This document shows, one piece after another, positions 4,452-41,063 of a stretch of 60,586 nt of DNA (positions are counted from its first letter, which is position 1; every line of letters starts with the position of its first letter). The notes below the pieces were generated by a model. It was not told where the DNA came from and ran no database searches. It saw only the letters and a list, made by a program, of their open reading frames with translations. The translations under genes and the position numbers were made by a program. The stretch is from a virus. Taxonomy: Duplodnaviria; Caudoviricetes. The stretch is from positions 1 to 60,586 of the IMG/VR virus record IMGVR_UViG_3300002219_000012; one strand, 5' to 3'.

Positions 4452-4536
4452 ATAAAAAAGCCTGCCTTCTGCGTGTTTTACGCAAAAAGCAGGCTCGTAG
4501 TCCCTCCGTGGTGAAGGCTTAATAAGTCCCTGTATG
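4452..4536 (-). terminator. Conserved GGGACT element + long intrinsic terminator, copy E1
   Basis: CATACAGGGACT..AAGCCTTC-loop-GGAGGGACTA then AGCCTGC...GCAGGCT + T run; homologous to E2 and E3. Confidence 0.8.
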
Positions 4537-4565
4537 TTAGATCATTCTTGCCTCACTTGCCTAAA

Positions 4566-4594
4566 ATTATACCTTGTCTTTTCTTGAATGTAAA
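4566..4594 (-). promoter_or_regulatory. Sigma70-type promoter
   Basis: TTTACA-17 bp-TATAAT pointing into E1 and lysis genes. Confidence 0.75.
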
Positions 4595-4604: not shown

Positions 4605-7600
4605 TTAGTTCCGCAATAGCGCCCGCTCGTTCTTCGAGGGGGCCGCCATGCGCCGCGCCTGCATCTGCAATGACTGTGAGGTTATCGGAGAAACGCCCGG
4701 AATTCTCAGCTCCCGGATCTTCTTGTTGTAATCCTGAACCTCTTTTACAATCTCCTTATATTCCCCTCTGTCACGCTTGCCCAACGTCCACGCCCGGTAA
4801 CGCTCGTAAATAGCATTACGCTTATCAGCAAAATCCGCCTGCTGCCGGTGCCCCTCCCAGGTCCTTTCGGAAAGAACAGCCTGATCTGTTGACCGGAATC
4901 CGAATGTCCGGGCCACGGTCGCCGCGCCTTCTGGTTTATAGGGTCTGCCTTGTTCGTCCCATACCGGCCGGTTATTCCGTGTCGTAACGCCCTGGCTTGA
5001 TTCCCGTATCGCCCGGAGCGGATTAGCAAAGCCGGTCGGAAGTAAATGCTCTGCCGCTTTCGCGTACTGCTTGTTTCTGATGCTTTCTTTCGCTTCCTTT
5101 AACTCCGTGGCCACGCCGCCGATGGCGCCTGTAAGGTCAATGAAGTTCTTCGGGATACCGACGCCAGCGGATAATGAGCCGGATATATCCACACCCAGGG
5201 CGCCGGTCAATCCATGCCGCCCTATCTTTTCGGCTTCCAGGCCCAGGTGTTTCCGGATTTCATCCCATACCCACTTTTCCGGATCTCTGTCTTCCCCGAA
5301 TAAGGCTTTCAGGATAAACCCGGCAAAGCTGAAAAGAGCGTCCTTGAAGGGTAGCGCCGCGCCGCCGGCAAGTACCAGAGGCGACAAAAAGGCGAACATC
5401 ATCCCTTTGATATTCTTCTTCTTCGCTCCCATATCATAGAGCATTTGCAGGTAATTATGGCCGAACTTCTGATAAACATAAAACAGTTGTCCAAGCTTGG
5501 CCGCGGGGTTAGTGCCCTGCGCCCACATCGGCATCGTGGATTTGCCATAAACACCATGAGCCTTATCACTGGCTTCCTTGGCTACTTCCGCCGCCTCCCC
5601 GTGGCCCATCCCCTGTTTCCGGGCCAGCCGGTAGGCCGCCAGCATCGTGGTTCCACGGTTCCACTTTTCGGATTTGCCGAACAGATACATGGAGCCGTCC
5701 ATCATCGAGGACCATATCCGCGAATGAGTTTTGGATATCTCGCCCAAGGCCTCCCTGGTATATTGAGCATCGTCCCAGCCCTTTTTCTGGACCTCATCAA
5801 GAAACGCCTGTTCGTCGGCATTGGCCAGCTTCTTTCCGGCCATTAAAGCGCCGTAGTCTTTACCGGAAACGGCCAGCTCTTTGATGATTCCCATCAAGGA
5901 ACCCTTGCCGCCCAAAGCGTATTGGTGAATTGCCGCCGGCGCGGTTGTGATGATCGCCGTCGTGTTGACCGCCAACGAGCGGAGGTTAAAGCCGAGGAAT
6001 TTAAACGTGGCGATGGACTTAGCCAATCCGATCATCCTATCAATCGGTTCGACGTTTCTTAACTGTTCTTCAATGTAATTTTGTGCAACCTGAAAAGCCT
6101 TCGGGTCTTGAACCGGGTCAATTCCACCGATCTGTTTCCCCTCGAACTTCTCGCCCAGCATTTCCTTCATGGCCATTCGCGCTACACGGGCCTTGGCAAT
6201 TCCACCGGAAAGGCTGTTTGTATATTGAAGGTGCCGCTGAATCGGGTCTTCGATGAATCCCCGGACAACCTTCTCGCCCCTTCTGATCATGGTGGATCTG
6301 AACCCCCGGGCCTTGATCGCGTTGGAGACTTCCCTTAACACTTCCTCGTTGAATTTCAGCGTCAATTCGTTGGACAGGGCGCTTTTCTTGCTCAACTTTT
6401 CGAGGGCCGCGTCAATCAGTTTCGCCGTGGCCGTCGCGTTGACATCCTGATAAATCGTCTCGGGCAGTTTTTCAACCTGGCCCACGCTGAAAATCTTCCA
6501 GCCTTCACGCTGCATCTTATTGGCCAGCCGCCGGGCGGATAATTCTGAACCCCTGTGCTCCCGGTACCATTCCCGGTTTTCTTTCATGGGGCCATGCTCT
6601 TTATAAGCCTGTACCTTCCAATTCCCCTGTTCTCTTAATCTCGGGGCATAGAAGCCGCGCCATTCTTCCATTTGTGCCAGAGCGCCTTTAAGGGTCTGCC
6701 TTAATTCGTTCAGGTCGGGCTTTTCGCCCCGGAAATTGGCTTCCTCTGTGATCTCCTCGATCATTTGCCGTAGCTGGGCGGTCTGGAGGTCAAGGGCCTT
6801 GTCGTAAGACTGACGATAGAGCTTCCATACTCTGATCGTGTCTTCCGTCGCGCCCTGCTGCCGGATGTGCTTTTCAAACTCTTTAATCTGCTTGTCCAAA
6901 GGAATGGACGTATTCCGCTTCCAGGACGTATCGCCTTCGTCAATGATCTCCTGCAACTTCTGATATTCAGGGGATACTTTCCCGGCAAGTCTGTCAGCCA
7001 AAGTCAAGCCCTTGTTTTTGAGGGCCTTGGCCGCCTCTGTGACCGTGCTTTCCGGCGCGTCGATATCGTCGGCCATATTCAACTCATTGAAGGTTTCGTG
7101 ATAAATCTCGTTCCGATCGCGCATGAACAGCTTGACGATGTTCTGAATCTGCGGATGACCGAACCATTCAGGGCTCTTTAATATCGTTTCGAGCCAAGTC
7201 ATGTGCGGCGGGTGCAGCTTATTCATCATGGTTTGAATAAGGGCGTCCGTCTCGTCTTTGAGATAAAGATTGAGAACCTTCGGGTCGCGGGAGGTCGGCG
7301 GGTCTTGCTGGGGGCGGATGGAATATTTCCTGGCTGAATATTTTCTGGATTCACTCTCTTTTACAATCGGATCAACTGTCTGTCCGTTTTTCAGTCCGTC
7401 CGTCAATAACACCCCGCCGATTCTTTCCATGCCGGATTCAATATCCGCCACATATTCTTCGGTTGCAAATGGTATATCGACTCGGTATCCACGATTATAA
7501 TTATCTACCCCCAAAACAGTCTTACTCAGATTTTCTCTATACTGAATAAAGGCTTGTGACGTAGTGTCTATTTTCCCTTTGGTCGTTGATTGGCTGTATA

Positions 7601-10600
7601 AATGGTGGCTTATTTCATGGGCAACTCTATTGATAAGAGGAACATCGCCCTTGTCCATGCTTAGAAATATGTTGTTTCCACTTATGAACGCATTTATTGA
7701 TTTTGTGGAATCTTTGAAGGGAATTAAGTCAAAGCCATGAGAAGCAGCAAGATTTTGCATCTCTTTGAAGTTGTGATTATCATACCCCGTCGGATCGTGT
7801 GTTATTCCCTGTCCGGCCGTCCGGCAGGCTTCTCTAAGACGATGTGGGGCGTTAACGTCTTGAGAAATTCCTTGTCTTTCATCTGCCACTCGCCTTCTGT
7901 GTTCTTCTCGAACGCCGGGTAATACGCTCTCCCGTTCCCCGCGTCTATTCTCACTGTCGGCTGTTGGTCTTCCATCTTCGCCTCCTTTTTCTTCTATTAT
8001 ATCACCTTTTTGGTTAATTGAATATCCGGATTTTACAGTCTGCCCCCCAACCTCCGGGGGGCGGGTTGGGTTAGGGAGTTCGGGTTTTACAACATGAAAA
8101 TTAGGTTTCTTTTTTGGCTCTTCCTTAAAGTATGTTTCATTAATAAATGCCATGTCTTGTTTATTAAGACTGTCTATTTCTTTTTCAGCTCTTCTTAAAT
8201 CTGCAATAAGTAATTGTGGTTTTTCGGTAAACCTTTCGGCTATCTCCAGTGCATATTTTGGGTAATGTGCGGCTAATTGCTCTATTGAGAAAGCCAGTGG
8301 TGTGATTCCTTGAATGTTTGGGATGTTTTCTTTATATGGGTCAAAAATTGTGTCATAAACGGTCATTTTCCCCCATGCCGGATCGACATCTTCATAATGT
8401 TCATTAGCAATATGTTCAGGGAGGTTCTTTTTTACAATACTCCAAAACTCTGAAGGATAAAGTTTTTCTTCGGTAAGCGCCTTAATTGCTCTTGCAATTT
8501 CTATCACATTCTCTTTTGTGCCGAATATTCCTACATCTGGTGCAACATAATTATCTATTCGTGATTTACGGAAAGCATTTTCTTGAACAGCAATATCCAC
8601 AGAATCATCTTCCTTAAGAAAAGCAAGCGGATCATTCTCAATTTTTCGTGCTTCAAACTCAGGCACATCCCATTTAGACGTATCGCGCCATGCTTCAATT
8701 CCATCCTCGGCCTTCGGGGTTGTCTCGGGTGGTATGTTGGCCGTCCCCTTCCCTTGTGTTCCAGAATAACGATTCTCGGATTCCGCTACTTTCCTTTCCG
8801 GCGCTTCTTCTGATACGGGAACTGTCTCTCGTCTTTCCGGCCGTGTAACCTCTCCAGTTCTTCCTTGTAGATAACGCTCGCGGTATTTAAGGTATCTATT
8901 CGTTGCTTCTGTTTCTTGGGTACGTGTTCCATCGTATCTCCTGTATTGGTATCCATAAAATGATAGTGGCCGCATAAAGATACCCTCGTTTCCGGTGGTA
9001 TCCAATTCTCCTCTTATATTAACATGGGCTACGAAAATATCCAAGCCGTCATAATACAGTTGGTCGGCTTCGGCTCTGGTAATCGGGACGTAGCCCATTG
9101 CGATAAAATTACGGGGCTTCTGCCAGAATTTCAGCGGGAGACTTTCTAATTGTTTCTGAATGTCCATGCCTTCCCACCATTTGTAATTCGGATTGTCCGA
9201 ACGTGAAAACATCGGTTGGCTTCGGCGAACAGGTGAACGCTGAAATTCAATCGGCACTTCTTGCTCTTGCTCTTCTCTTATGGCGTCCAGTTTTTCACCG
9301 TTCCGTTCCAGAAGCGCAATGCGATCTAAAACTTTCTGATCCCAGATGACGTAATTATATGTGTAACCTCTTTTAAACTTATTAATATAGTTTTGTCTCG
9401 CCTTCGATTTCTCTTCTGGTGTATCGTGTAAATATTGAACAAGATAATCCGCGGCAGCCTCTGCATCGCCGTTAAAATTGTCATAAGCGACCTTCATTTG
9501 ATTATCAATGATATTGTAGTTCCTGCTCATCTGATCCAGATACTTGTTGCCGGGGATACCAATAGAAGCAAGGTATTTGGAAGCCGCTTTTTGTGAACCA
9601 AATTTTTGAGTAAGGTGTTCGTAGTATCGTGACCCCTTAGCGTCAAGTGGTTTAACGGGGCGCAAAACGTAACCCTGCCTTTCCCATTCGGCCTTTTCTT
9701 CTTCGCCCCTTGCCCACGCTAATCGCTTGCCGGTTTTTGTATAAATATCATGCGTAACATCACCGGGAACCAAATTGACGTTTTTCCCCAAGAGAATCTT
9801 TATATACTCACTCTGTTCTGAAAGCGGTTTATCCCAATCCAGCAACTTCGGGATAACGTCATCTGGGATTTCGAGTTTGTAGAGGGAGTTTGCAATCTTA
9901 ACATCTGCATTAGCCCATTTATCAAGGATATCGGCCACGGTGTTTAGTTTTTCTGCCTGATCCCATCCGGCTTCTTTTTCAAATAGCGTAAGCGATTCAG
10001 GGTTATTTTTTGCTATTCTTGCCGCCGTTCTAATTCGATGAGCTTCCATTAATATTGATTTATTAACAAGGAGCGAGTTGGCGGCTATCGTTACGGCCAT
10101 TTCTTCCGCTGTTTGCTTCTCAAGTGGTTTTTTTGTCCCGCTATATATCTTTCCATCAACGTCAATGGATTGTCCGCTTGCGCCCAAGTATGCCTTACCA
10201 GTTACTTCCGCTTCTGCCGAATACCATCCCCATCCGAACGCCGCTGCACCCTCTCCTGTTCCTATCTTGTCCAGCCTCGGTCTGCCATGAGGGAACCCAG
10301 GTTCAGGCATCCAGACGTGCGGTGTTCCGTGATGGGCTATCTTAAAATTGACGCCCTCGCCTCCAAACTCTTTAAACGCATCCTGTAATACTACCCGGAC
10401 TTCCGCATCGGACAGCTTAACATCAAGCCCTATGGCTCTCAAAAGGTCGTGGAAGATAGCAACCAATTTGTCATACCACTTGGGTTGAGCCTCATAAGAC
10501 TGGTTGCAAAGCCATTCCTCGCAAGCCTGCCGCCGGTCTTTAGCGGTTCTGGTATTCAGGTGGGTGTGGGTGGTCTTTGTGATCTGCTCAATCTCTTTGT

Positions 10601-13600
10601 GGTGCGCCCTGTAAATGGCGTCCATCAGGGCTTCGTATTGCGCCCGGACAGGCACTAACGCCCTCGACATCCGCTGCCGCTGGAAGAATTTGCCTAAGCC
10701 GCTGTGGGTCAATTCGTGGGCTAAGGTTCTAAGGGCTTCCTCGGTGTTCTGAAGGTTGTCAGAGACAAGATAAACTTCGCCTTTATAGGTGAACCCCATA
10801 GCATCGTCAATGCCCTCTTGCTCCATGATTTTCTGGACTTCATCCGGGCAGTTCTCATTGCCCTGAACCACGTTGACTTTCGGGGCGTTGGGGATGGCAG
10901 TTACAGCCTTGTTGATGATTGACTGGACGGCGGACTGCTGGAGGCCGGAGGAGGTAGTTCCTTTGCGCTGATACATCGCCACGCCCTTGTCGGTTTCGCG
11001 GGTCTGGATGGTGTCAAATAGCTTATCAAACGCATCTTCGACTGGTGCGATTTCACTGTCATACAGATACGGGTATCTATCGGCCATGCGTTTGAAATCT
11101 TCAACCCTCACGACATTGGCTAAGTAATCGTTCTGGTATCCCTGTTTCGCCATTTTAACGATGACGTAATTTTCAAAAGACCGTGCAGCGCGTTCGATTA
11201 TCCTTGACCAATACTTATTTTTGATATGCGAAACACGTTCAGACATCGGAGAATTGTCGAGAGTTTCAACCAACTTTTTGAACGCCTCGGCAACTTCCGG
11301 TCTCACCCCTTCAATCTTTGTCCAGTTTTCAGGCTTAAGGCCACGGCGGTTTAGAATCTCGTTGTACCGCGATGCAGACAACCTCGCCCCGCCCTTTTCC
11401 TGATAATAGGTTTCGGGGCTGTAGGTGATATAGTTTTTTTCGCGCGTAACGCCTTCAATGCCTCTCGCACGCTGGAAGTAATTGTCCAGGGCATGGAAAA
11501 ACTCATGAGCAAAAGTCCCGGAGCCTTTTGTCTTTGTCAGATTAATAACTATCGTATCTGGTTCATAATGCGCCGCTGCCCCTCCGTGCCCCCGCGAACC
11601 GAATCCAAGCCCAAGCGTTCCGTTCAAAGAGATAGCCTTGGGAGGTATCCCGATTATATCGGCCAGATCCATCATGGCATCGTAGGCATCGTTGAGCATC
11701 CCTTGCCGTTCTTTGGCATTACTGCCCTGTGCTACCCAGTTGCCGAACTCGACACCACGAAATCCGAAAGTGTCTATGAATTGTTGTGGAGTGACATCTT
11801 TCCCCGCACGGTGATCCTTCCCGGCCCGGGGACGGTTTTCTTTCGTGCGGACATCCTCCTTAGCGACGTTTTCCAACTCTTTGACGGCATCCCACGCTTT
11901 CAGAAGTTCATCGGGATGTTCGTTTCTGAAATCAAGAGCTTCCTTGGATGTTTTAAATTCTTTCAGCTTGTGGTATTGGCTGTCGCCTTTTTTATTAATA
12001 AAGTAACGATCTCCACTGCCACGAACTTCAAAGCCTTTAATGGCGTCCGATTTTATCGGTGTCGTCTTGCCCAATGCTTCATTGACCTGCTCAATGGATT
12101 CTTCGACGGACTTCAAGCCTTCAAAAGATTTGTACCGGCCGTCAATGTAAACAGACACGGAAGGCGCTGGGATGTGTTCATATTTTCCGTCATCACCCAT
12201 CTTATCGCTGTATCGGTACGCATCGGGGTATTCGTTTACATCTCCTATCCTATCCCATTGCTCACGGTCGATTGCTTCGAGGAGACGAATCTTAGCAAAA
12301 AACCCTTTAAGCGAGGAAAACGATTTTGATTTGTCTAATATCTTGCCTCGGCTGTATGCACCGTTTTCAATATCCTTAAATAGATCGCTCATCATGCCGC
12401 GAAAGGCCTTAACCTTCTCAACCCAGCGGCTTACTTTATATTTTAATTGAGGTTTTGTTGGAATTGCGCCCCTGGCGGCAAAAGCAAACGCGGCAACGAA
12501 TTTATCTTCGATGGCATCAACTTCGCTTTTTGGCCATATCTTACTCAATGGCAGACTGGCAATATCGGAATCGGTATATTCTTTTTTAAATGATTCAGAT
12601 CTGTCTTTCCTGGCTCCGCCCAGTTTTTCTCCGAAGTCCTGAATATCTTCTTTCCCGCTTTTTGAGGCAGCTGGTACTATCGCTTTCGATTGGCCGGTTT
12701 CTTTCCTCAACCGGTCAATCGCCCGGTCAAGCACTTCGTTGAGGTCTTTCACCTGCATCTGATACAGGCTATCCTTGCCCGTTTTCACGCCCTTATTTAA
12801 AGCCAATGCAGCAGGTAGTCCCTCTTCTGCTTTCTTCATGAGATTGTAAGCAAGGGTACTATCGTACCGTTTTATTTCATCGTAAATTTCACGGGAAACG
12901 CTCTTGTCTATTGCGCCAGCCTCATCCCTTGAGGTTATCGTTGATAGCTTTTCCTTAATTGACAAAAGCTGCTGGGTGATAGGGTGATCGCTGTTTTCTG
13001 GTTGCCCTTCTTTATAAAGGTTTGTCCCATCAATGCGCACATTTAAAAAACGAGTTTTATCTGTCGGGTCAACCGAAAATGAAACAAGGCCACTTTCTTT
13101 ATTGTTTTCATCCAGGCGGGCGGCTGTCAGCGTAAAGCCGCTGTCGCGGTCAAGGGCATATCGGTTGCCTTCATTATCCACAAGAACGTCGCCACGGGTT
13201 AGCTTTGTGCCATTGTGTCGGTTGGTAGCAGGGTCGTAACGTAACCCGTCTGCTTTCCCTTCTTCCTTCGTCATCTGCCAGGGTTCTTTGGCTTCCGGCT
13301 TCTGCTCGGATGGTTCGGCAAAATAATCACTCACCGCCTGATCCGTCCCCTTGACGGTATTCGGGAGTTTTGCACCTGTCCGGTTTTCAAATTCAGCCCG
13401 AAGATTTTTGTTTGGCAGGTCGAGATATTCCTGCATCTTCAAGGTGTCTTTTGATTCAAAGGCTGCGTTGAATTTATCCTTCGTGGATTGCGGCAAAGAA
13501 TCAAATCCGGCGAGCGGTGCGGTCTTCTTGCGTTCTGGCCTCGTTGTTCCGTCCATGCGAAGGGGCTTCGGTTTGGCAGGTTCTTCTTCAGCCTCAACCA

Positions 13601-16600
13601 TTTTCGCGGCGTCAGCAATATGGTCGGGGGCGGAATAGACGTTTTTATCATAACCCGCAATCTTCAATAATTCTGCTGTTTTTTTATCAATGCGTTCTTT
13701 TAATCTTGGCTCAACGCCAACGATATCAGCAATATCCTTGATCTTGCTTTTTGCCTCTCGCGTTAGTAATCCCGCCTGCAAGAGTTCGTCGTCTGATCTT
13801 CCAATTAAGTTGTCGATGTGTACCCTTGCCACAAGATCATTGTTTTTAAGGTATTCCATGTCCGCAAGCAAATCAGACGTTAATTTCGGATCGACTTCTT
13901 CTGTTTGTGTTTTTTTCTCTTCCGCAAACAAGTCCTCATTCTTCGGCGTGACCTGCTGGGGTAATCCTTTGCTTATTTCCGTTTCGGGGTTGGTAAGATT
14001 GAACGAATCAGTGCCTTCAATCTTGGTCTGATTCTTCTCGGTGATTGCTGGTTTTTCGGCTGGTTTGTTTTCTGCTATGGCTGCAAAGAAATCATCAGCA
14101 TCGTGCGAGGCAAGCGCTAACTCGCTTTCTGTGAGGTCGCCCTCCTGCGCTTCAATCTCATCAAGAGAAACTGCTTTAATGTTTTCTTGACCTTCTCCTG
14201 CGATGGCGTCAGCGAATTCGTTTTCTTCGAGCTTTGCGAGTTGCTCTGTGATCCACTCATTTTCTTTCTCCTCAATCTCTGTTTCCATTTTACTCTCTTG
14301 CAGATCAGGACGCAACACCTTTCTTGCATCCCCTTCGGCCAGTTCTCTAAACAAAGTCACATCCGTAAACGGTTGACCGTCCCTGTCCCGGTATCCTTCA
14401 AGATTGGCCATACTTGCGGCCTCATCCATTGAAAACTTGCCGTTGATGCTGGCAACTGCCTTAATAACGCCCATTTCCCGGCTCTGGTCTTTCCCGCGCT
14501 TACCATGCGCCCGATCCCAGGCCGTGCCAGTTTTGGAAGTGAATGATCCCAGGCGGACTTTGCCGATGGCAATTATGAATTGAGCAAGGTTCTTTGATTC
14601 CGTGGCCTTCTTCGGGCTGTTGTCAACCTTAATGACCTTTTCTTTCAGCTTCTTATACCAAATGCTTTTGCCCTGTGTTTTATCGGATGGCTTGTAAACT
14701 ACCTCGTACCCTTCTTTTGCGGGTATCTCCCTGAGGGACTTCTGAATCCGGCCAAGGTCTTTACGTTCTGCCTTGCGGATGAAGATTTCGGCGGGTTCGG
14801 CGGCCTCATTCTGTTTCCGTCTTTTTGCCAGTTCAATTTCTGCGCCCTTATTCCCGGCGGCTGCAAATCCTTTTAATTGCTCCTCTGGAATTTTGCCCCA
14901 TTGGTCTTTCATCGCCTCCGGTATGTTACCAAAAGTGGCGGGCGTTTCAGTCGCTTCCGGCGATACCACTACTTCCTTAAGGTGTGCTGCTCCCTTTTTT
15001 GCGGCCTCAATGGTAGGCCACCGGCCAATCGAACCTCCTCCGAGGGGGCCTGATCCACCATTTACCCATTTATTCTTACCAACCGAAACAGCAAAACCAT
15101 TACCATCGGGATGCGGCACTATTCGTGCGGGCTCCTTAACCTTACCTTTCGTGGTGGGTTCTGGCTTAAAATCAACCAACACCTCGACGTTGCTCATTTG
15201 TTTTGGAATGTCCCGCTTCCACTGTTTTGCAACTAACTCCCCGTTTTCGCCCTTGACGGCAAGTATATAACGTGCGCCAACTCCCTTGGGCATACTGTCT
15301 GTATTGGTAATTTTAAGGTCTTTGGAATATGGGATTATCTGGCTCTCGGAACTGACACCCTCTGCCTTCTTGGGGGCAAGGTCAGGATAGTCTTTCAGGA
15401 CGGATTCAGGGACTGGTTTGCCTTCACGCACGGCATCGCGCACAATACCCCTGTGCCATTCTTTTTGCTTTGCGCTTGGCTCCTTCGCCTCTGTCTTAAA
15501 TGCCCCGGCCTCCCATGCGCTCCATTGACCAACTGGCATCATCCAGGGACTTCGGGAACTAGCATCGCCTTCTGGATTCGGCCACTGTTTACCCACCTCT
15601 TCGGCACTCATCTCCCACGGTTCTTTAACCTCACCCGCCGCTTCCACTTTCCCGGAGATGCTATCTTCGGGCGGCTTGGGAGCGGCGGGCACCTTTGCCC
15701 ACGGTTCCCCGGCAAAGTCCTCTATTTTGGCCGTATCGTTCGGCTTAAGATTCTTCGCCGTCAATTCATTGCTGATATTCCTTGCCGTCACTTCATCAAT
15801 GCCGAATTTCTTCATCAAATAGCGGTCAAGGTCTGCCTTAGTGGTCATCTGTGAATGAGCAAGTCTGGCCTTTTTGTCGTCGCCCAAAGACGCATCAACC
15901 TTATAAGCTGCGCCCCTCCATCTCTGTGCTTCCTTGACCATCTCGTTGAAGTCGGGAGAAGACTCCTCGGATTTCACTTCCTTTACGCCTACTGTCGCGG
16001 CATCGGTTTGTGAGAGAGGCGCGGGGAGTGTGCTGGGCTTTCCTTCGTGCGCTTTATTCCAGATTTCGGTAAGTTGGGATTTTGTTTTGATTTTATTTAC
16101 ATCAAAAACAACCGTTGTCTTCCCCACCTTAGTACCTTCTTTGTCTGCGAAAATTAAAGCATCGTGCCCTCTTTCCTGTAGTTTTTGTGTGATGTTAAAT
16201 TTTTTCTCCAGCGCCTCTAATGCGCGATATGGCGATTCATTGTCACCTGATGTAAATTCGTCAAAATAACTATCCGCCTTCATTCTCTTTAAAGTAAATG
16301 CGTTTTCCTCGGTATCAACCCCTAGCGCCTTAGTCAATTCGTCAAAGTTTTGCACCTTGCTCAAATCTATCGGGTTATGAACGTCTAGATTTCGTTCCAT
16401 TACATTCTTGCCGAATTTCCCTGCCAAATCCTTGTTGTCAGCGAAATAAGTCCCGAATGTCTTTTGCCCAGATGCGTCCCGAAATTCCTCTGGCACTTCA
16501 TTAAAAGGCTTAAACGTTTCAAAATCACCATGCGTCCCGTGGTAATAAGGTGTTTGCGCCTGCACAAACTCATCGGCGCTTTTATATTTAAGCGCTTCAG

Positions 16601-18347
16601 TGAGCAAATTACCTTCCGGCGTTGCCGCAGGTTCAACGTTCTTTTCAGCCTGTACGTTGGGTGCCTCGATGGGGGAAGTCTCAGCAGTGGGCAAGGGTTT
16701 GATTTCCTCTGCCGGTTTTACGATCTTATCAAGAACCTTCTGCTCGTCTGTGTCCAGAAGACCTTTTGCTCTGGCTTCCTGAAGGATGGCAATGTCTGCT
16801 TCGCTCGGTTTCTGTGCTGGATAATAAGGCAACGTCTTCCGGGCGTACTTTAATTTCTGCTGGTCAATTATCGGGGTTTCGGTTTGCAGCGTCCCATTTG
16901 GCACCTCCTCTTCTGGAATTGTATATTCCGGCACGTCTTCTTCCGTGTTTCTTGCGGGGATGATCTTCTTGATCCGCTCCATATCGGCCAGTGTTTGGCT
17001 GATGGAATCCGGGCGGGGCTCGGGGGAGGCTACTTCGTCTATCTTCCTGATAATGCTATCCGCGATAACACCGTTCAGCCCATCCCGTAACTGGGGGTAT
17101 CGCTCTTTGAATCTTTCAAGACTGTCACTGTCATAGATACCGCTGTTTTGTCCCTCGCGGATAATTTCAAGAGCGTTTTCGGGGGTGAAGGGATCGCCGT
17201 CAACGGTGCCCACTTTCATTCCCTGGTCAATGAAACTGGTTGCCAGAGCGCCTATCTTTAATTTATTGATTTCGCGTTCAAGTTCAGGGGGGTTGTCCTC
17301 GACGGCCTGCAATCTCTGATAAACAGCTCCAGCTCCGCCGATGAATCCGGACAACAAAAGAACAGCAGGGAATACTTCCTTTGCCGAGGTCAACCAGTCT
17401 TCCGGGCTTGTCCATTCCCGTTTGGGCTCGGAGGTCATACCGGCTTCGACTTCGACGTTGTGTTGGCCCATTTGGGTGACGGTTTCCGTCGCTTCCTCAA
17501 TTCCGATGATCTTACCCAGCTTCACAGCGCCTTTGGCCAGTTTTTTAATGACAGAATCGGGAATCAGCTTTCCGCCCGGAACTTTGTTTTTTGCAAGGAT
17601 CAACGCCAGTTCTGCCGCTGTGCCGATACCTTCCGGGACGGCCTCGTACAAACCTGACTTAGAGGCAAGTCCTTCGTATAGCCCCTTAAGCGCCGTTTCT
17701 TCCTCGGGGTTTATGCCGCGGCCATGTAACTTGATGCTTTCCTCATTCTTCCGGTTCAGCCAGTCGTTCATGGTCTGGTATGATTGCATCCTGTGGGCGG
17801 CCGCACCAGCGCCGAGCATCCGGCCCGCAAATATTCCACCGGGTCCACCGGGGGCACCAGCCACACCACCAGCCGCGCCAGCTACCATCGAAACGCCGCT
17901 AAACCCGAGGTTTTGCCCCAGTTGTGCAATGTCTTGTTTGGAAATAACGCCGGGGATTACGTCGCCCGTTCCCTCGTATTCTTTGGAAAGTTCCTCGTTA
18001 CGTTTCGTTACCCAATTAACAAACTTGTCGCCTATCCCTCTATCATTTATCGAAGCACCGCCGCCGCCCTGAATCGCTGTGATTGCAGAGGCCGCAAGAT
18101 TTTCAGGCACGCTTAAAAGCGTCTTTCCCAGTGCTCCCAGCGCCGATCCTTCTTTGGGTGGATTGCGGCGCTTTAGATCATCCTGGACGTGCTGATCGAC
18201 GCCCTCCTGCTTGGCCCAGGTGTCAAAATCAGAGTATTCCTTATCGTAACCCGCACGGGTATAAACGTCTTTTGCCACCTTATCAAGCGGCGCGTCTCCG
18301 TAATAATCTTTGTGTTTGTTATAGAATCCGAGAATGTCGAAAGCCAT
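4605..18347 (-). CDS. Giant polyvalent internal-virion/ejection protein (ART-like x2, LPD5/LPD1-like, HExxH x3, PLxRFG-like C-terminus)
   Basis: 4580 aa; YYHGT..GTYF..GHDALIF; IQDFGEKLGGARKD; FGFRGVEFGNW..AHEFFHALD; AHELTH; HHGTPH..GTGEGAAAFGWGWY; AHEISHH; last gene of virion module. Confidence 0.85.
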   Translation of the reverse strand: MAFDILGFYNKHKDYYGDAPLDKVAKDVYTRAGYDKEYSDFDTWAKQEGVDQHVQDDLKRRNPPKEGSALGALGKTLLSVPENLAASAITAIQGGGGASINDRGIGDKFVNWVTKRNEELSKEYEGTGDVIPGVISKQDIAQLGQNLGFSGVSMVAGAAGGVAGAPGGPGGIFAGRMLGAGAAAHRMQSYQTMNDWLNRKNEESIKLHGRGINPEEETALKGLYEGLASKSGLYEAVPEGIGTAAELALILAKNKVPGGKLIPDSVIKKLAKGAVKLGKIIGIEEATETVTQMGQHNVEVEAGMTSEPKREWTSPEDWLTSAKEVFPAVLLLSGFIGGAGAVYQRLQAVEDNPPELEREINKLKIGALATSFIDQGMKVGTVDGDPFTPENALEIIREGQNSGIYDSDSLERFKERYPQLRDGLNGVIADSIIRKIDEVASPEPRPDSISQTLADMERIKKIIPARNTEEDVPEYTIPEEEVPNGTLQTETPIIDQQKLKYARKTLPYYPAQKPSEADIAILQEARAKGLLDTDEQKVLDKIVKPAEEIKPLPTAETSPIEAPNVQAEKNVEPAATPEGNLLTEALKYKSADEFVQAQTPYYHGTHGDFETFKPFNEVPEEFRDASGQKTFGTYFADNKDLAGKFGKNVMERNLDVHNPIDLSKVQNFDELTKALGVDTEENAFTLKRMKADSYFDEFTSGDNESPYRALEALEKKFNITQKLQERGHDALIFADKEGTKVGKTTVVFDVNKIKTKSQLTEIWNKAHEGKPSTLPAPLSQTDAATVGVKEVKSEESSPDFNEMVKEAQRWRGAAYKVDASLGDDKKARLAHSQMTTKADLDRYLMKKFGIDEVTARNISNELTAKNLKPNDTAKIEDFAGEPWAKVPAAPKPPEDSISGKVEAAGEVKEPWEMSAEEVGKQWPNPEGDASSRSPWMMPVGQWSAWEAGAFKTEAKEPSAKQKEWHRGIVRDAVREGKPVPESVLKDYPDLAPKKAEGVSSESQIIPYSKDLKITNTDSMPKGVGARYILAVKGENGELVAKQWKRDIPKQMSNVEVLVDFKPEPTTKGKVKEPARIVPHPDGNGFAVSVGKNKWVNGGSGPLGGGSIGRWPTIEAAKKGAAHLKEVVVSPEATETPATFGNIPEAMKDQWGKIPEEQLKGFAAAGNKGAEIELAKRRKQNEAAEPAEIFIRKAERKDLGRIQKSLREIPAKEGYEVVYKPSDKTQGKSIWYKKLKEKVIKVDNSPKKATESKNLAQFIIAIGKVRLGSFTSKTGTAWDRAHGKRGKDQSREMGVIKAVASINGKFSMDEAASMANLEGYRDRDGQPFTDVTLFRELAEGDARKVLRPDLQESKMETEIEEKENEWITEQLAKLEENEFADAIAGEGQENIKAVSLDEIEAQEGDLTESELALASHDADDFFAAIAENKPAEKPAITEKNQTKIEGTDSFNLTNPETEISKGLPQQVTPKNEDLFAEEKKTQTEEVDPKLTSDLLADMEYLKNNDLVARVHIDNLIGRSDDELLQAGLLTREAKSKIKDIADIVGVEPRLKERIDKKTAELLKIAGYDKNVYSAPDHIADAAKMVEAEEEPAKPKPLRMDGTTRPERKKTAPLAGFDSLPQSTKDKFNAAFESKDTLKMQEYLDLPNKNLRAEFENRTGAKLPNTVKGTDQAVSDYFAEPSEQKPEAKEPWQMTKEEGKADGLRYDPATNRHNGTKLTRGDVLVDNEGNRYALDRDSGFTLTAARLDENNKESGLVSFSVDPTDKTRFLNVRIDGTNLYKEGQPENSDHPITQQLLSIKEKLSTITSRDEAGAIDKSVSREIYDEIKRYDSTLAYNLMKKAEEGLPAALALNKGVKTGKDSLYQMQVKDLNEVLDRAIDRLRKETGQSKAIVPAASKSGKEDIQDFGEKLGGARKDRSESFKKEYTDSDIASLPLSKIWPKSEVDAIEDKFVAAFAFAARGAIPTKPQLKYKVSRWVEKVKAFRGMMSDLFKDIENGAYSRGKILDKSKSFSSLKGFFAKIRLLEAIDREQWDRIGDVNEYPDAYRYSDKMGDDGKYEHIPAPSVSVYIDGRYKSFEGLKSVEESIEQVNEALGKTTPIKSDAIKGFEVRGSGDRYFINKKGDSQYHKLKEFKTSKEALDFRNEHPDELLKAWDAVKELENVAKEDVRTKENRPRAGKDHRAGKDVTPQQFIDTFGFRGVEFGNWVAQGSNAKERQGMLNDAYDAMMDLADIIGIPPKAISLNGTLGLGFGSRGHGGAAAHYEPDTIVINLTKTKGSGTFAHEFFHALDNYFQRARGIEGVTREKNYITYSPETYYQEKGGARLSASRYNEILNRRGLKPENWTKIEGVRPEVAEAFKKLVETLDNSPMSERVSHIKNKYWSRIIERAARSFENYVIVKMAKQGYQNDYLANVVRVEDFKRMADRYPYLYDSEIAPVEDAFDKLFDTIQTRETDKGVAMYQRKGTTSSGLQQSAVQSIINKAVTAIPNAPKVNVVQGNENCPDEVQKIMEQEGIDDAMGFTYKGEVYLVSDNLQNTEEALRTLAHELTHSGLGKFFQRQRMSRALVPVRAQYEALMDAIYRAHHKEIEQITKTTHTHLNTRTAKDRRQACEEWLCNQSYEAQPKWYDKLVAIFHDLLRAIGLDVKLSDAEVRVVLQDAFKEFGGEGVNFKIAHHGTPHVWMPEPGFPHGRPRLDKIGTGEGAAAFGWGWYSAEAEVTGKAYLGASGQSIDVDGKIYSGTKKPLEKQTAEEMAVTIAANSLLVNKSILMEAHRIRTAARIAKNNPESLTLFEKEAGWDQAEKLNTVADILDKWANADVKIANSLYKLEIPDDVIPKLLDWDKPLSEQSEYIKILLGKNVNLVPGDVTHDIYTKTGKRLAWARGEEEKAEWERQGYVLRPVKPLDAKGSRYYEHLTQKFGSQKAASKYLASIGIPGNKYLDQMSRNYNIIDNQMKVAYDNFNGDAEAAADYLVQYLHDTPEEKSKARQNYINKFKRGYTYNYVIWDQKVLDRIALLERNGEKLDAIREEQEQEVPIEFQRSPVRRSQPMFSRSDNPNYKWWEGMDIQKQLESLPLKFWQKPRNFIAMGYVPITRAEADQLYYDGLDIFVAHVNIRGELDTTGNEGIFMRPLSFYGYQYRRYDGTRTQETEATNRYLKYRERYLQGRTGEVTRPERRETVPVSEEAPERKVAESENRYSGTQGKGTANIPPETTPKAEDGIEAWRDTSKWDVPEFEARKIENDPLAFLKEDDSVDIAVQENAFRKSRIDNYVAPDVGIFGTKENVIEIARAIKALTEEKLYPSEFWSIVKKNLPEHIANEHYEDVDPAWGKMTVYDTIFDPYKENIPNIQGITPLAFSIEQLAAHYPKYALEIAERFTEKPQLLIADLRRAEKEIDSLNKQDMAFINETYFKEEPKKKPNFHVVKPELPNPTRPPEVGGQTVKSGYSINQKGDIIEEKGGEDGRPTADSENRRGERESVLPGVREEHRRRVADERQGISQDVNAPHRLREACRTAGQGITHDPTGYDNHNFKEMQNLAASHGFDLIPFKDSTKSINAFISGNNIFLSMDKGDVPLINRVAHEISHHLYSQSTTKGKIDTTSQAFIQYRENLSKTVLGVDNYNRGYRVDIPFATEEYVADIESGMERIGGVLLTDGLKNGQTVDPIVKESESRKYSARKYSIRPQQDPPTSRDPKVLNLYLKDETDALIQTMMNKLHPPHMTWLETILKSPEWFGHPQIQNIVKLFMRDRNEIYHETFNELNMADDIDAPESTVTEAAKALKNKGLTLADRLAGKVSPEYQKLQEIIDEGDTSWKRNTSIPLDKQIKEFEKHIRQQGATEDTIRVWKLYRQSYDKALDLQTAQLRQMIEEITEEANFRGEKPDLNELRQTLKGALAQMEEWRGFYAPRLREQGNWKVQAYKEHGPMKENREWYREHRGSELSARRLANKMQREGWKIFSVGQVEKLPETIYQDVNATATAKLIDAALEKLSKKSALSNELTLKFNEEVLREVSNAIKARGFRSTMIRRGEKVVRGFIEDPIQRHLQYTNSLSGGIAKARVARMAMKEMLGEKFEGKQIGGIDPVQDPKAFQVAQNYIEEQLRNVEPIDRMIGLAKSIATFKFLGFNLRSLAVNTTAIITTAPAAIHQYALGGKGSLMGIIKELAVSGKDYGALMAGKKLANADEQAFLDEVQKKGWDDAQYTREALGEISKTHSRIWSSMMDGSMYLFGKSEKWNRGTTMLAAYRLARKQGMGHGEAAEVAKEASDKAHGVYGKSTMPMWAQGTNPAAKLGQLFYVYQKFGHNYLQMLYDMGAKKKNIKGMMFAFLSPLVLAGGAALPFKDALFSFAGFILKALFGEDRDPEKWVWDEIRKHLGLEAEKIGRHGLTGALGVDISGSLSAGVGIPKNFIDLTGAIGGVATELKEAKESIRNKQYAKAAEHLLPTGFANPLRAIRESSQGVTTRNNRPVWDEQGRPYKPEGAATVARTFGFRSTDQAVLSERTWEGHRQQADFADKRNAIYERYRAWTLGKRDRGEYKEIVKEVQDYNKKIRELRIPGVSPITSQSLQMQARRMAAPSKNERALLRN

Positions 18348-25932: not shown

Positions 25933-26502
25933 TTATGCGTCGGCCAATGTAATCGTGCAGGAAACCAGCAAAATATCCGTATTGACGACAGATTTTGCGC
26001 TAGAAAATTTACTAGAGGCAAAGAGCGTCCCGCCGCCGTCTGTGTTGCCTTTGGTGCTCCCGTCCGTGCCGCCACCGCAAAGAAAAGCCCCGTAAATTGT
26101 TTTTGTGGCGTTCATGGTGAATGCCGCCTTACTTGCGTTATTGCTTGTTACCTTGGAAGACGCTGCCGCTTCAACAAAAGCCGGTCTTGTGGCTTCGGTA
26201 TAGGCTGTGCTTTCAGTAAAGCCCGGTGCGGCGTAGGTGTTGGAAACAAGAGGCGTGTAATCGTCTTCAAATAAGCCCATGTACCATGTTCCTATTGCCG
26301 TAGTTCCGTGGAAGGTCACGTCAAGCATGTGGTTCAAGCCCTGGGTCGTGTTGACGTTCTTCTGTTCCCAATGGTCGATTAACTGCCCTTTCCGGTAATG
26401 TTCAATTTTCCACCAAGTACCGACGGGGATAATGGATTTGACGGGCTGCGATCTAATAATCTCTGCGCCGAAGGTTGTTTTCAATGGTAAGTGTGCATTC
26501 AT
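25933..26502 (-). CDS. Tail structural protein
   Basis: Paralog of 29498-30076 (FTMNA..TIYGAFL..GTLF). Confidence 0.7.
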   Translation of the reverse strand: MNAHLPLKTTFGAEIIRSQPVKSIIPVGTWWKIEHYRKGQLIDHWEQKNVNTTQGLNHMLDVTFHGTTAIGTWYMGLFEDDYTPLVSNTYAAPGFTESTAYTEATRPAFVEAAASSKVTSNNASKAAFTMNATKTIYGAFLCGGGTDGSTKGNTDGGGTLFASSKFSSAKSVVNTDILLVSCTITLADA

Positions 26503-29427: not shown

Positions 29428-29452
29428 AAGAGGCTCCTTTTGATTTTTTCTT

Positions 29453-29481
29453 ATTCTATCACAAGAAGCCCCTTATGTAAA
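29453..29481 (-). promoter_or_regulatory. Sigma70-type promoter for HNH gene
   Basis: TTTACA-17 bp-TAGAAT with TG extension; AAGGAG SD downstream. Confidence 0.65.
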
Positions 29482-29497
29482 TGTTATTTCTTGCACG

Positions 29498-30076: not shown

Positions 30077-30100
30077 TGTTATTCTCCTTTTTTGGTTAAA

Positions 30101-30182
30101 ATAAAAAAGCCTGGCTCTACGGAAAAATCCGTAAAACCAGGCTCATAGTCCCTTCGTAATGAAGGCTTTTAGTCCCTGTATG
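30101..30182 (-). terminator. Conserved GGGACT element + long intrinsic terminator, copy E2
   Basis: CATACAGGGACTAAAAGCCTTC-ATTAC-GAAGGGACTATG-AGCCTGG...CCAGGCT + T run. Confidence 0.8.
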
Positions 30183-30188
30183 TGATAA

Positions 30189-31517: not shown

Positions 31518-31550
31518 TGACTTTTCCTTAAAAATTTACTAATATACTCC

Positions 31551-32579: not shown

Positions 32580-32582
32580 ATA

Positions 32583-33839: not shown

Positions 33840-33843
33840 TCCC

Positions 33844-36119: not shown

Positions 36120-36177
36120 GTCATTACTCCTAGAATAAAAGAAGTTTGATATGGGGCCTTTGCAGACCCCATATCAC

Positions 36178-36615: not shown

Positions 36616-36637
36616 GATCGTTCTCCTTCATGGTAAG

Positions 36638-36665
36638 AAGCCCCTCCTTTTTACGGGAGGGGCTT
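36638..36665 (-). terminator. GC-rich hairpin, terminator-like
   Basis: AAGCCCCTCC / GGAGGGGCTT 10-bp stem, weak U tract. Confidence 0.55.
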
Positions 36666-40414: not shown

Positions 40415-40503
40415 ATTTCCTCTCCATTCCTCGGCCAGTTTTAATTTTCATGTTGTCCGTTTCCGGCATGAATCCGCTGGTTCTCCGACTTTTGGTTAAA
40501 ACA

Positions 40504-40588
40504 ATAAAAAAAGCCGGAACTCATGGATGGTTGGTCCACAAATTCCGGCTTTAAAATCCCTATTGGGTAGGTTCTAAGTCCCGTTATG
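40504..40588 (-). terminator. Conserved GGGACT element + long intrinsic terminator, copy E3
   Basis: CATAACGGGACTTAGAACCTA-CCCAA-TAGGGATT..AGCCGGAATT...AGTTCCGGCT + T run. Confidence 0.75.
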
Positions 40589-40593
40589 AAAAA

Positions 40594-40791
40594 TTACTTT
40601 ATTTCATTGAAGCTGATCCTTTCACGTGAAACAGGTTTTGTTTGCAAAAAAACATCTCCCATGAATCCCTGTGAGACATTAATCTCAACTGTTAATTCTA
40701 TTTTACCCGTGGGCCTGCCTGAAAGCAAGAAAATAATTTTCCGTTGCAGCGCTTCCGAGACGGCATTAAGTTTTTTCTGCTTGTCGTCCAT
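40594..40791 (-). CDS. 65-aa protein (alpha-beta-beta-beta, YezD/DUF2292-like pattern), candidate RNA-binding regulator
   Basis: Helix then TGKIELTVEINVSQG; ends 5 nt before E3. Confidence 0.55.
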   Translation of the reverse strand: MDDKQKKLNAVSEALQRKIIFLLSGRPTGKIELTVEINVSQGFMGDVFLQTKPVSRERISFNEIK

Positions 40792-40793
40792 AC

Positions 40794-41063
40794 TTAACCC
40801 TTACAGGCCAGATGATTTTCTTTCAAATAGGCATTGTACTCACTTCGTGACTGTAACGGCGGTTCTCCGTGCCTCTGGAGGACCTGGCAGGCCGACGGCA
40901 ACCATTTCACGTCGTTGACGGAATCGCATTGTATCCCGCCCGCGCTCAAAACCTTCTTGGCCATCCAGCCACAAGAACAGCGGTGATGTTTGGGAACTCT
41001 GTTGACCTTGTGAAAAACATCATGTTTCTTTCCGCATCGGCATTGGTATTCGTATATCGGCAT
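40794..41063 (-). CDS. FmdB-family zinc ribbon protein
   Basis: MPIYEYQCRCG...CSCG..AKKVLS. Confidence 0.85.
   Translation of the reverse strand: MPIYEYQCRCGKKHDVFHKVNRVPKHHRCSCGWMAKKVLSAGGIQCDSVNDVKWLPSACQVLQRHGEPPLQSRSEYNAYLKENHLACKG

What the first reader, a model, noticed from the sequence alone, without database searches (positions are those of the whole stretch)
4452..4594. Three-copy GGGACT-hairpin-GGGA(C/T)T + long-terminator element: candidate undescribed antitermination system gating capsid, tail and lysis genes
Seen on the minus (sense) strand at 4452-4536, 30101-30182 and 40504-40588: CATA.(A/C)GGGACT, an A-rich linker, a small covarying hairpin (CCTTC/GGAGG, CCTTC/GAAGG, CCTA/TAGG) whose 3' arm overlaps a second GGGA(C/T)T, then a ~16-bp hairpin AGCC...GGCT with a T run. 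Stem interiors differ but pairing is kept. E1 lies ~25 nt after a TTTACA-17-TATAAT promoter and before the lysis cassette; E2 precedes tail/ejection genes; E3 precedes scaffold + capsid. Inference: terminators inside essential late operons must be read through, and the tandem GGGACU boxes are probably the site for a dimeric RNA-binding antiterminator. Functionally analogous to lambda pR'/tR' but not recognisably nut, qut or put.
Basis: partly seen in the sequence, partly recalled or inferred. Interest (0 to 1): 0.85.

Follow-up and report, generated by a model that had tools for sequence, protein, structure and literature searches.

The report
Phage late-operon terminator switch RNA
Three copies of a conserved RNA module sit inside the late genes of an uncultured phage of Deltaproteobacteria, each a small fold that can pair with and so compete against a strong transcription terminator, and they probably act as on/off gates for the head genes, the tail genes and the last block of late genes.

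Summary
The three elements (E1 4452-4538, E2 30101-30184, E3 40505-90, minus strand) are the only hits of a covariance model in the window. They carry the three strongest clean intrinsic terminators of the sense strand, and no Rfam family matches them.

The module recurs 1-4 times per genome in 19 of 30 related viral records, at the same three positions. In one host MAG it occurs only inside the prophage.

The new result is that the conserved 5' box (C-A/G-G-G) is complementary to the first bases of the terminator's 5' arm (C-C-U/C-G). The variable position covaries: 13 A-U against 20 G-C in an unfitted alignment. Box and arm can therefore close a hairpin around the small covarying stem, giving a quasi-symmetric internal loop that excludes the terminator. 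That is the logic of a RAT-type or ON-riboswitch attenuator, not of lambda Q/qut.

The second GGGACU is only partly conserved across the family. All four E1-type copies examined have a sigma70-like promoter just upstream.

The 65-aa gene 40594-40791 travels with the module (13 of 19 records against 0 of 11) and models as a homodimer. It is the best candidate for the factor.

No termination, read-through or RNA binding has been shown. I rate this a new variant of a known kind.

The parts
4566..4594 (-). sigma70-like promoter TTTACA-17-TATAAT in front of E1
   Evidence: 11 of 12 positions. Equivalent promoters lie upstream of the E1-type copies of G001, G002 and G003.
4525..4536 (-). E1 box CATACAGGGACT. 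C4532-G4529 is the 5' strand of the proposed antiterminator helix P1.
4503..4517 (-). E1 small hairpin P2 (CCTTC / GGAGG). The second GGGACT is at 4499-4504.
4454..4496 (-). E1 intrinsic terminator: 17-pair stem at 4458-4496, then a T run. Its first bases, 4490-4493 (CCTG), are the 3' strand of P1.
30171..30182 (-). E2 box CATACAGGGACT. C30178-G30175 is the 5' strand of P1.
30151..30165 (-). E2 small hairpin P2 (CCTTC / GAAGG). The second GGGACT is at 30147-30152.
30103..30144 (-). E2 intrinsic terminator: 17-pair stem at 30107-30144, then a T run. Bases 30138-30141 (CCTG) are the 3' strand of P1.
40577..40590 (-). E3 box TTCATAACGGGACT. Bases 40580-40590 are the 5' strand of a longer P1.
40559..40571 (-). 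E3 small hairpin P2 (CCTA / TAGG). GGGATT is at 40555-40560.
40504..40552 (-). E3 intrinsic terminator: 18-pair stem at 40510-40552, then T7. Bases 40535-40548 are the 3' strand of P1.
40594..40791 (-). 65-aa ORF (P0002), directly upstream of E3. It is the candidate trans-acting factor.
   Evidence: Co-occurrence. Fold of one helix plus a beta hairpin, pLDDT 80.7. Homodimer model 0.50 against best control 0.00. No Pfam or PHROG family.
40794..41063 (-). 89-aa zinc-ribbon ORF (P0001). It is a syntenic neighbour and is not specific to the module.
40415..40490 (-). Separate conserved structured leader between the E3 terminator and the RBS of the 250-aa ORF.

Best explanation
Each module is a conditional intrinsic terminator, that is, a transcription attenuator.

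The RNA can fold in two mutually exclusive ways. In the default fold, a 17-18-pair hairpin followed by a U run stops the host RNA polymerase. In the alternative fold, the conserved 5' box (core C-R-G-G, longer in E3) pairs with the first bases of the terminator's 5' arm (C-C-Y-G). This closes a helix, P1, around the small hairpin, P2. Between P1 and P2 lies a quasi-two-fold-symmetric internal loop in which each strand starts GG|(G)ACU.

This alternative hairpin is only marginally stable on its own. I infer that a factor made earlier in infection binds the symmetric loop, holds P1 shut while the 3' arm is being transcribed, and so lets the polymerase run on. The downstream targets are the head genes (E3), the tail and injection genes (E2) and the last late block (E1, which also has its own sigma70-type promoter).

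The factor is most likely a small phage homodimer. The best candidate is the 65-aa product of 40594-40791.

Shown here: the anatomy, its conservation, the covariation in the terminator and in P2, the covariation between box and arm, the co-occurrence with the 65-aa gene, and a modelled homodimer. Inferred: that termination occurs at all, that read-through is regulated, that the regulator is a protein, and which protein it is.
For: 1. Strength of the terminators. These are the three strongest clean hairpin-plus-T-run sites on the sense strand and fold at -31 to -36 kcal/mol, z -4.6 to -7.3. The terminator helix is 96.5% paired, and 10 of its 13 pairs show changes on both sides across 38 distinct sequences (on an alignment fitted to the model).

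2. The small hairpin. All 5 of its pairs show double changes and it is 70% paired. In 36 instances the mean MFE is -5.3 against -2.75 kcal/mol for shuffles, and 0 of 200 shuffled sets reach the observed value.

3. Box against arm. In the unfitted MAFFT alignment A2 the four proposed pairs form in 88.7% of cells, against at most 48.9% when the partner is slid by 1-3 columns. Pair 14-60 is G-C 20, A-U 13, other 1. Of 500 shuffles, 0 reach the covariation score.

Among 55 unique elements I read 30 G/C, 15 A/U and 3 with a shifted CGG:CCG register. Two have compensatory changes at the next pair (L030, G003-E1), and two pair only GGG:CCC. One is G.U and two are discordant.

RNAfold of the RNA up to the end of the 5' arm predicts this helix around P2 in most instances, and in all three window copies.

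4. Read-through is needed. The scans found no sigma70-like promoter in the 800-nt windows around E2 and E3, which reach about 200 nt beyond each terminator. Relatives that lack the E2 module have the two flanking genes directly adjacent. Those that lack the E3 module run from the zinc-ribbon gene straight into the scaffold leader.

5. E1-type copies in 4 of 4 genomes examined lie just downstream of a sigma70-like promoter, 7-29 nt from the -10 element. That is a promoter-leader-terminator arrangement.

6. The module is phage-specific. It occurs in 19 of 30 related viral records, 1-4 times each. In a 3.4-Mb host MAG both hits lie in the prophage contig (150 of 674 candidates were scored).

7. 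The 65-aa family is found in 13 of 19 records with the module and 0 of 11 without. Among capsid loci the counts are 25 ++, 1 +-, 1 -+ and 6 --. In G029 it again sits directly upstream of the element although the downstream gene is different.

8. The homodimer model scores 0.50 against a best control of 0.00. That mark was reached by 20 of 30 solved homodimers and 1 of 23 single chains. The runs agree in at least 96% of contacts, and the partner's pLDDT is at least 73.
Against: - There is no measurement of termination, read-through or binding.
- The P1 core is only 4 pairs in E1 and E2. The truncated antiterminator fold is not unusually stable: z -1.2, -2.3 and -1.0, and 23, 7 and 31 of 200 shuffles fold at least as well.
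- The A-U against G-C covariation largely follows position. E2- and E1-type copies are A-U and E3-type copies are G-C, with L073 an exception. It may therefore rest on about three independent events. Shuffle controls ignore relatedness.
- The fourth P1 pair fails in 14 of 36 rows.
- The 65-aa protein has no family, no recognisable RNA-binding fold and no PDB match at E 0.001 or better.
- Six records with the module gave no hit to its profile. G007 is rated 100% complete. G008, G012, G013, G028 and G030 are fragments or weak element hits.
- Its link to the module could be plain adjacency.
- The record is rated 78% complete, so another regulator may lie outside it.
Confidence: 0.45

Rival explanations
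1. Fixed, factor-independent attenuators. The terminators are leaky by design, and the upstream fold merely sets a constant read-through fraction. This would tune the relative doses of portal/terminase, head, tail and lysis products.
For: The architecture is the same. The antiterminator fold is only marginally stable, so it could give a constant partial read-through. The module is optional at the E2 position, as a tuning device might be.
Against: E3 sits directly in front of the scaffold and major capsid genes, which are needed in the largest amounts, so a -22 to -26 kcal/mol terminator with 7 U would cut their expression. The conserved single-stranded GG|ACU half-sites and the symmetric loop are not needed for a purely thermodynamic switch.
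Confidence: 0.2
2. Processive antitermination of the nut, put or LoaP kind. The box plus small hairpin is an RNA loading site that converts the passing polymerase into a terminator-resistant form, and alternative pairing plays no part.
For: A conserved single-stranded box next to a variable, covarying hairpin just before each terminator resembles the box-plus-hairpin layout of lambda nut sites as I recall them. More distant relatives carry a different cognate element at the same position, much like specificity classes.
Against: A processive system needs one loading site per operon, not one in front of every terminator. It does not explain the box:arm complementarity and covariation. No NusG-like protein is encoded.
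Confidence: 0.12
3. True transcript ends plus small RNAs. E1 is a stand-alone RNA of about 100 nt made from its own promoter, and E2 and E3 are 3'-UTR-derived RNAs. The conserved box would be a seed and the terminator an Hfq-type module. Downstream genes would be expressed from promoters that were not recognised.
For: E1-type copies have good sigma70-like promoters in 4 of 4 genomes. A conserved 5' single-stranded box, a small hairpin and a terminator is a typical sRNA layout. The complement of the box has 22 near-matches in the window against 9.5 expected, 3 of which are the elements themselves.
Against: No promoter was found downstream of E2 or E3. Only 25-40 nt separate the T run from the RBS in E1 and E2. 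The near-matches to the box complement do not sit at start codons. The box:arm covariation is unexplained.
Confidence: 0.12
4. A small-molecule ON riboswitch. The symmetric internal loop between P1 and P2 binds a metabolite or an ion.
For: A P1 helix whose 3' strand is the start of the terminator is the standard ON-switch expression platform. The loop nucleotides are conserved.
Against: The loop sequence drifts among relatives (GGGACU, GGUUACU, GGAAGCU, GGUACU), which is unusual for a ligand pocket. The element occurs only in phages, and relatives hold a different element at the same site. Both suit a co-evolving protein better.
Confidence: 0.05
5. A moron-type insertion. The 65-aa gene and its own terminator were inserted together, and E1 and E2 are copies of that terminator without regulatory meaning.
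For: The gene and the module are present or absent together among close relatives.
Against: E2 and E1 occur without any extra gene. The box and small hairpin are conserved and covary, beyond what a terminator needs. No promoter was found in front of the 65-aa gene.
Confidence: 0.06

Closest known systems
RAT/CAT antitermination of the BglG/SacY/LicT family
   Same: An imperfect hairpin with internal loops overlaps the 5' arm of an intrinsic terminator, and a dimeric protein is thought to hold it shut so that the terminator cannot form. It acts locally, with one site per terminator. The description of RAT is recalled, not tested here.
   Different: No CAT_RBD protein is encoded. The sequence is unrelated. 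The elements sit inside a phage late operon rather than in sugar-operon leaders. The candidate protein is a 65-aa helix plus beta hairpin of no known family.
Lambda pR'-qut-tR' with Q, and P. aeruginosa AlpA with its binding element
   Same: E1 is a constitutive-looking promoter, then a short leader and a strong terminator, in front of the last late block, which may hold lysis genes. The hexamer GGGACG that AlpA binds differs from GGGACU at one position. I read passages of PMC7969949 and PMC9371919.
   Different: Q and AlpA bind DNA between -35 and -10 and load at a sigma-dependent promoter-proximal pause. Here the box lies 7-29 nt downstream of the -10 at varying distance, and E2 and E3 have no promoter. 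No Q or AlpA family protein is encoded. The small hairpin and the box:arm pairs covary, which points to RNA.
Lambda N/nut and HK022 put
   Same: These are RNA signals in phage transcripts that let the polymerase pass terminators, and related phages carry different specificity variants.
   Different: Those systems are processive and are loaded once near the promoter. Here a site stands immediately before each terminator and is complementary to it. The features of nut and put are recalled, not tested.
ON-type transcriptional riboswitches
   Same: The 3' strand of the closing helix P1 is the start of the terminator's 5' arm.
   Different: No Rfam family matches. The loop sequence drifts among relatives, and the element is restricted to phages.

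Membership tests
Any Rfam 15 family | Score at or above the family's gathering threshold | tested here: not met
   The whole window at gathering score gave only int-alpA at 50018-50083. The three loci at E up to 10 gave only irrelevant matches far below threshold.
Intrinsic (Rho-independent) terminator | G+C-rich hairpin directly followed by a U run | tested here: met
   17-18 pairs plus 6-7 T. 96.5% paired, with compensatory changes in 10 of 13 pairs.
BglG/SacY RAT-CAT antitermination | Antiterminator hairpin that overlaps the terminator's 5' arm | tested here: met
   Box:arm helix predicted and covarying. Its stability alone is not above shuffles.
BglG/SacY RAT-CAT antitermination | CAT_RBD (PF03123) RNA-binding protein | tested here: not met
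   Six-frame search of the record found no match at E up to 1. The record is 78% complete.
ANTAR antitermination | ANTAR domain protein (PF03861) and a target of two hairpins | tested here: not met
   No ANTAR match. Only one small hairpin lies before the terminator.
Lambda Q / AlpA type | Binding element inside a promoter, with loading at a promoter-proximal pause | tested here: not met
   No promoter at E2 or E3. The distance from promoter to box varies at E1-type copies.
Lambda Q / AlpA type | Q (PF03589, PF06530) or AlpA (PF05930) family protein | tested here: not met
   No matches. A 58-aa HTH_17 ORF at 47538-47714 scores below its cut-off.
RfaH/LoaP (NusG paralogue) systems | NusG N-terminal domain protein | tested here: not met
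   No PF02357 match.
Lambda N/nut | boxA plus boxB RNA, and an arginine-rich N protein | not tested
   The consensus is recalled only. No profile search for N was run.
Metabolite riboswitch | Ligand-dependent change of fold | not testable with these tools
   Only the architecture can be judged.

The most novel reading that the evidence does not exclude
The module and the 65-aa gene next to it form a previously unknown, portable antitermination cassette. A tiny homodimeric protein of a new fold would clamp a quasi-symmetric RNA loop to switch off the adjacent terminator. Copies of the RNA site spread through the late operon would give the phage a three-step timer for heads, tails and the last late block. 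Sister phages with a different terminator-linked element would hold other specificity classes of the same design.
Probability: 0.22. Interest if true: 0.8.

Novelty: new variant of a known kind. Interest (0 to 1): 0.62.

Why it matters
Control of late genes in phages outside the lambda, T4 and T7 models is largely unknown. This is especially true for uncultured phages of anaerobic Deltaproteobacteria.

If the reading is right, this family uses local attenuators of the RAT type, repeated along one long operon, rather than a single processive antiterminator. It would also add a new small RNA-binding protein family and a compact RNA-protein switch of about 90 nt that could be used as a genetic part.

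The work also gives concrete, testable base pairs (box against terminator arm) and one named candidate gene.

Tried and rejected
- **RNA runs.** I laid contigs of four runs (X17 and X18 are probably DNA; X19 and X20 are metatranscriptomes of one study) on 28001-44000. They cover the scaffold and capsid genes of relatives and stop at 40388-40406. No listed contig bridges E2 or E3. Contigs cannot show transcript ends, so this says nothing either way.
- **CsrA-type GGA sites.** I considered these from a recalled consensus and dropped them, because many relatives have GGUUACU or GGUACU in place of GGGACU.
- **Phage RNA polymerase or sigma-factor promoter at the box.** No conserved sequence lies upstream of the box. 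No polymerase or sigma domain appeared among the 50 window ORFs scanned against Pfam (41) or against PHROGs alone (9 more). Not every ORF was scanned.
- **Promoter overlapping the T run.** There is no conserved -35-like element. I judged this by eye, not by a test.
- **Archaeal host.** The nearest named record is 'Methanosarcina virus MetMV'. I rejected an archaeal host because relatives lie in two deltaproteobacterial MAG contigs. From the search-listing abstract, MetMV was detected in environmental samples by metagenomics. I did not read how its host was assigned.
- **'Box without terminator' in G015.** This turned out to be part of the separate scaffold leader.
- **Seed-target search with the box complement**. 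It gave more near-matches than chance, but none at start codons.
- **Fold search of the 65-aa model against the PDB.** No match at E 0.001 or better.
- **Literature.** Searches for phage RAT-like antitermination and for catalogues of phage RNA motifs found no description of this element. PMC10690425 (passages read) lists 8495 candidate IMG/VR RNAs, of which 1241 have terminators.

Full report
**What the window is.** It is an IMG/VR virus record rated 78% complete. One long run of minus-strand genes extends from about 53186 to about 2300:
- two DNA methylases, a DnaB helicase, and the small and large terminase subunits;
- several small cysteine-rich ORFs, the portal, a zinc-ribbon ORF and a 65-aa ORF;
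- [E3], then a 250-aa ORF and the major capsid gene;
- a head-closure gene, [E2], then virion proteins;
- a 4580-aa polyvalent protein, [E1], then small ORFs including DUF5675.

The plus-strand genes at both ends include ERF and YqaJ recombination genes.

The nearest named record is 'Methanosarcina virus MetMV', with 59% capsid identity. Relatives also lie in two deltaproteobacterial MAG contigs, one of 189 kb. The signals are of the bacterial type, so I take the host to be a deltaproteobacterium.

Each whole module folds at -30.8 to -35.7 kcal/mol, z -4.6 to -7.3. The simple two-box pattern alone is not significant: 3 found, 1.08 expected, and 12 of 100 shuffles had 3 or more.

A covariance model (R1) was built from 36 distinct instances, the three window copies among them. 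With filters off it finds only those three in the window (E 1.4e-9 to 1e-7). The next hit, at E 1.9, is the reverse strand of E2.

Among clean single hairpins followed by at least 5 T on the minus strand, the three score -24.5, -26.4 and -22.0 kcal/mol. The remaining three score -16.2 to -16.5. No Rfam family matches.

**Conservation.** Thirty-four capsid loci, 69 loci of the gene after E2 and 2 loci of the gene after E1 were fetched from IMG/VR.

R1 gave 39 matches in 81 sources totalling 666 kb, all on the gene-sense strand. It gave 51 matches in 57 further sources; those came from a pattern scan of IMG/VR and from whole-record searches.

In whole records, 19 of 30 relatives have 1-4 matches. 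G001 and G003 have them at all three positions. G002 lacks E2. MetMV has only E3. In a 3.4-Mb host MAG both matches lie in the prophage contig (150 of 674 candidates were scored).

At the E2 position, 10 of the 49 distinct upstream regions printed carry the module. In many others (for example L046, L053, L057, L058, L063, L069) the two genes are simply adjacent. A further group carries a different terminator-linked element.

**What is conserved.** Across the family the constant parts are as follows:
- a box (C/T)ATAAC-R-G followed by a variable GGACU, GUUACU, GAAGCU or GUACU;
- an A-rich linker;
- a 4-7-pair hairpin of free sequence that usually begins CC and ends GG;
- 6-10 nt that often start (G/A)A(C/U)U;
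- the terminator, then the T run and AT(T).

The second GGGACU of the window is therefore only partly conserved. In some relatives it changes together with the first (GGUUAC with GUUAC in L021, L035 and L039).

The terminator helix is 96.5% paired, and 10 of its 13 pairs changed on both sides. The small hairpin is 70% paired, and all 5 of its pairs changed on both sides. Of 500 shuffles, 0 reach the observed values. That alignment is fitted to the model.

Independently, the region holding the small hairpin folds at a mean of -5.3 kcal/mol, against -2.75 for dinucleotide shuffles. Of 200 shuffled sets, 0 are as low.

**The key new point.** I folded each RNA only up to the end of the terminator's 5' arm. 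This shows a recurring long-range helix: the box core pairs with the first bases of the arm and encloses the small hairpin.

In the unfitted MAFFT alignment A2, the four column pairs give these counts:

| Pair | Counts |
|---|---|
| 12-61 | C-G 33, A-U 1, other 1 |
| 14-60 | G-C 20, A-U 13, other 1 |
| 15-59 | G-C 36 |
| 16-58 | G-C 22, other 14 |

Overall 88.7% of cells are paired, against at most 48.9% when the partner is slid by 1-3 columns. Of 500 shuffles, 0 reach the covariation score.

The pattern scan of IMG/VR left both variable letters free. Reading the 55 unique elements of both alignments, I count 30 G/C, 15 A/U and 3 with a shifted CGG:CCG register. Two have compensatory changes at the neighbouring pair (L030; the E1 copy of G003), and two pair only GGG:CCC. 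One is G.U and two are discordant, L017 and L153. The script's own tally mis-parsed some rows, so these numbers come from the printed rows.

There are caveats. A-U is almost confined to E2- and E1-type copies and G-C to E3-type copies, with L073 an exception. The independent events may therefore be about three. The fold is also not unusually stable on its own: -10.8, -12.7 and -11.9 kcal/mol, z -1.2, -2.3 and -1.0.

**Reading of the anatomy.** P1 (box:arm) and P2 (the small hairpin) flank an internal loop. In it, the strand leaving P1 and the strand leaving P2 both begin GG|(G)ACU.

Because the 3' strand of P1 is the start of the terminator's 5' arm, the two folds exclude each other. A weak antiterminator hairpin next to a very strong terminator is what one expects if a factor must hold the hairpin shut.

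**Need for read-through.** The scans found no sigma70-like promoter in the 800-nt windows around E2 and E3, which reach about 200 nt downstream of each terminator. Relatives without the module are co-linear there. One relative, G017, has a consensus-like promoter at the E3 position instead.

E1-type copies all follow a sigma70-like promoter:
- window: TTTACA-17-TATAAT;
- G002: TTTACT-17-TATAAT;
- G003: TTGAAA-17-TATCAT;
- G001: an extended -10.

The distance from the -10 to the box ranges from 7 to 29 nt. That argues against a promoter-anchored mechanism of the Q or AlpA kind and for a signal that acts once transcribed.

**Candidate factor.** No CAT_RBD, ANTAR, NusG, Q or AlpA family member is encoded.

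The zinc-ribbon ORF (40794-41063) has homologues in 16 of 30 records, two of which lack the module. It also occurs in capsid loci without the module, so it is not specific.

The 65-aa ORF (40594-41 nt... 40594-40791) has only phage relatives and no annotation. A profile of 25 members hits 13 of 19 records with the module and 0 of 11 without. Among 33 capsid loci with enough upstream sequence the counts are 25 ++, 1 +-, 1 -+ and 6 --. Many of these are near-duplicates, and the one -+ locus, L035, has a diverged module by eye. In G029 the gene is again directly upstream of the element although the next gene differs.

AlphaFold gives one helix and a beta hairpin, with pLDDT 80.7. No PDB fold matches at E 0.001 or better.

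The homodimer model scores 0.50 against a best control of 0.00. That mark was reached by 20 of 30 solved homodimers and 1 of 23 single chains. The runs agree in at least 96% of contacts, and the partner's pLDDT is at least 73. This supports pairing but does not show it, and it says nothing about RNA binding.

**Comparison with known systems.** In logic the module is closest to RAT/CAT attenuators and ON riboswitches. In genomic role it is closest to lambda's late-gene antitermination.

AlpA of P. aeruginosa binds the hexamer GGGACG, which looks alike. That site is DNA between -35 and -10, and AlpA loads at a sigma-dependent pause (passages of PMC7969949 and PMC9371919). That architecture is not met here.

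I found no description of this element in two literature searches. A catalogue of 8495 candidate IMG/VR RNAs exists (PMC10690425), but its lists are in supplements that I could not open.

**Verdict.** The module is a real, conserved, phage-specific RNA element. It is best read as a factor-dependent terminator switch (confidence 0.45). I rate it a new variant of a known kind, with interest 0.62.

Noticed in passing
window 40415-40490 (-): A second conserved structured RNA lies between the E3 terminator and the RBS of the 250-aa (scaffold-position) gene. It has nested helices (UCGG/CCGA, CCAGN/NCUGG, AUCGG/CCGAAAU and a GCC..GG hairpin) and the word GGACAAC twice. In 21 aligned sequences, 7 of 11 predicted pairs show compensatory changes. 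It is also present in relatives that lack the E3 module, and it has no Rfam match.
   Followed up: partly
L060, L064, L070, L093, L101, L102, L105 (the E2 position in distant relatives); L006:800-900, L021:1200-1300 and similar: A different terminator-linked element: CAGGGUU or GGGGUUU, then nested hairpins, a terminator and UUGCCCUGA or UUGCCCCG. Its flanks are complementary to each other across the terminator.
   Followed up: no
window 50018-50083 (-): An int-alpA RNA (RF02996, 51.1 bits against a gathering score of 35.8) lies just upstream of the likely true start of a replication-protein-like ORF inside 49219-50112.
   Followed up: no
window 4605-18347 (-): A 4580-aa polyvalent protein with ART-PolyVal, LPD5 and LPD1 domains. 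MetMV has a 3002-aa counterpart at the same place.
   Followed up: no
window 43195-44594 (-) and 58287-58804 (+): An unusual number of small cysteine-rich ORFs: a C2H2-type finger at 43721-44155 and CxxC pairs at 43435-43728 and 44143-44325. These are other possible nucleic-acid binders that I did not test.
   Followed up: no
window 47421-47445 (-): A TGTATAAT site (an extended -10) lies only about 7 nt before the start codon of the small terminase gene, so that mRNA may be nearly leaderless.
   Followed up: no
window 28627-29427 (-): An HNH endonuclease gene sits inside the block after E2 (phrog_99, E 8.6e-20). It lies between two paralogous phrog_8123 genes, 29498-30076 and 25933-26502.
   Followed up: no
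L037:1190-1400: In one distant relative, sequence that looks like a tRNA gene lies between the zinc-ribbon gene and the terminator before the scaffold leader. I judged this by eye and did not run ARAGORN.
   Followed up: no
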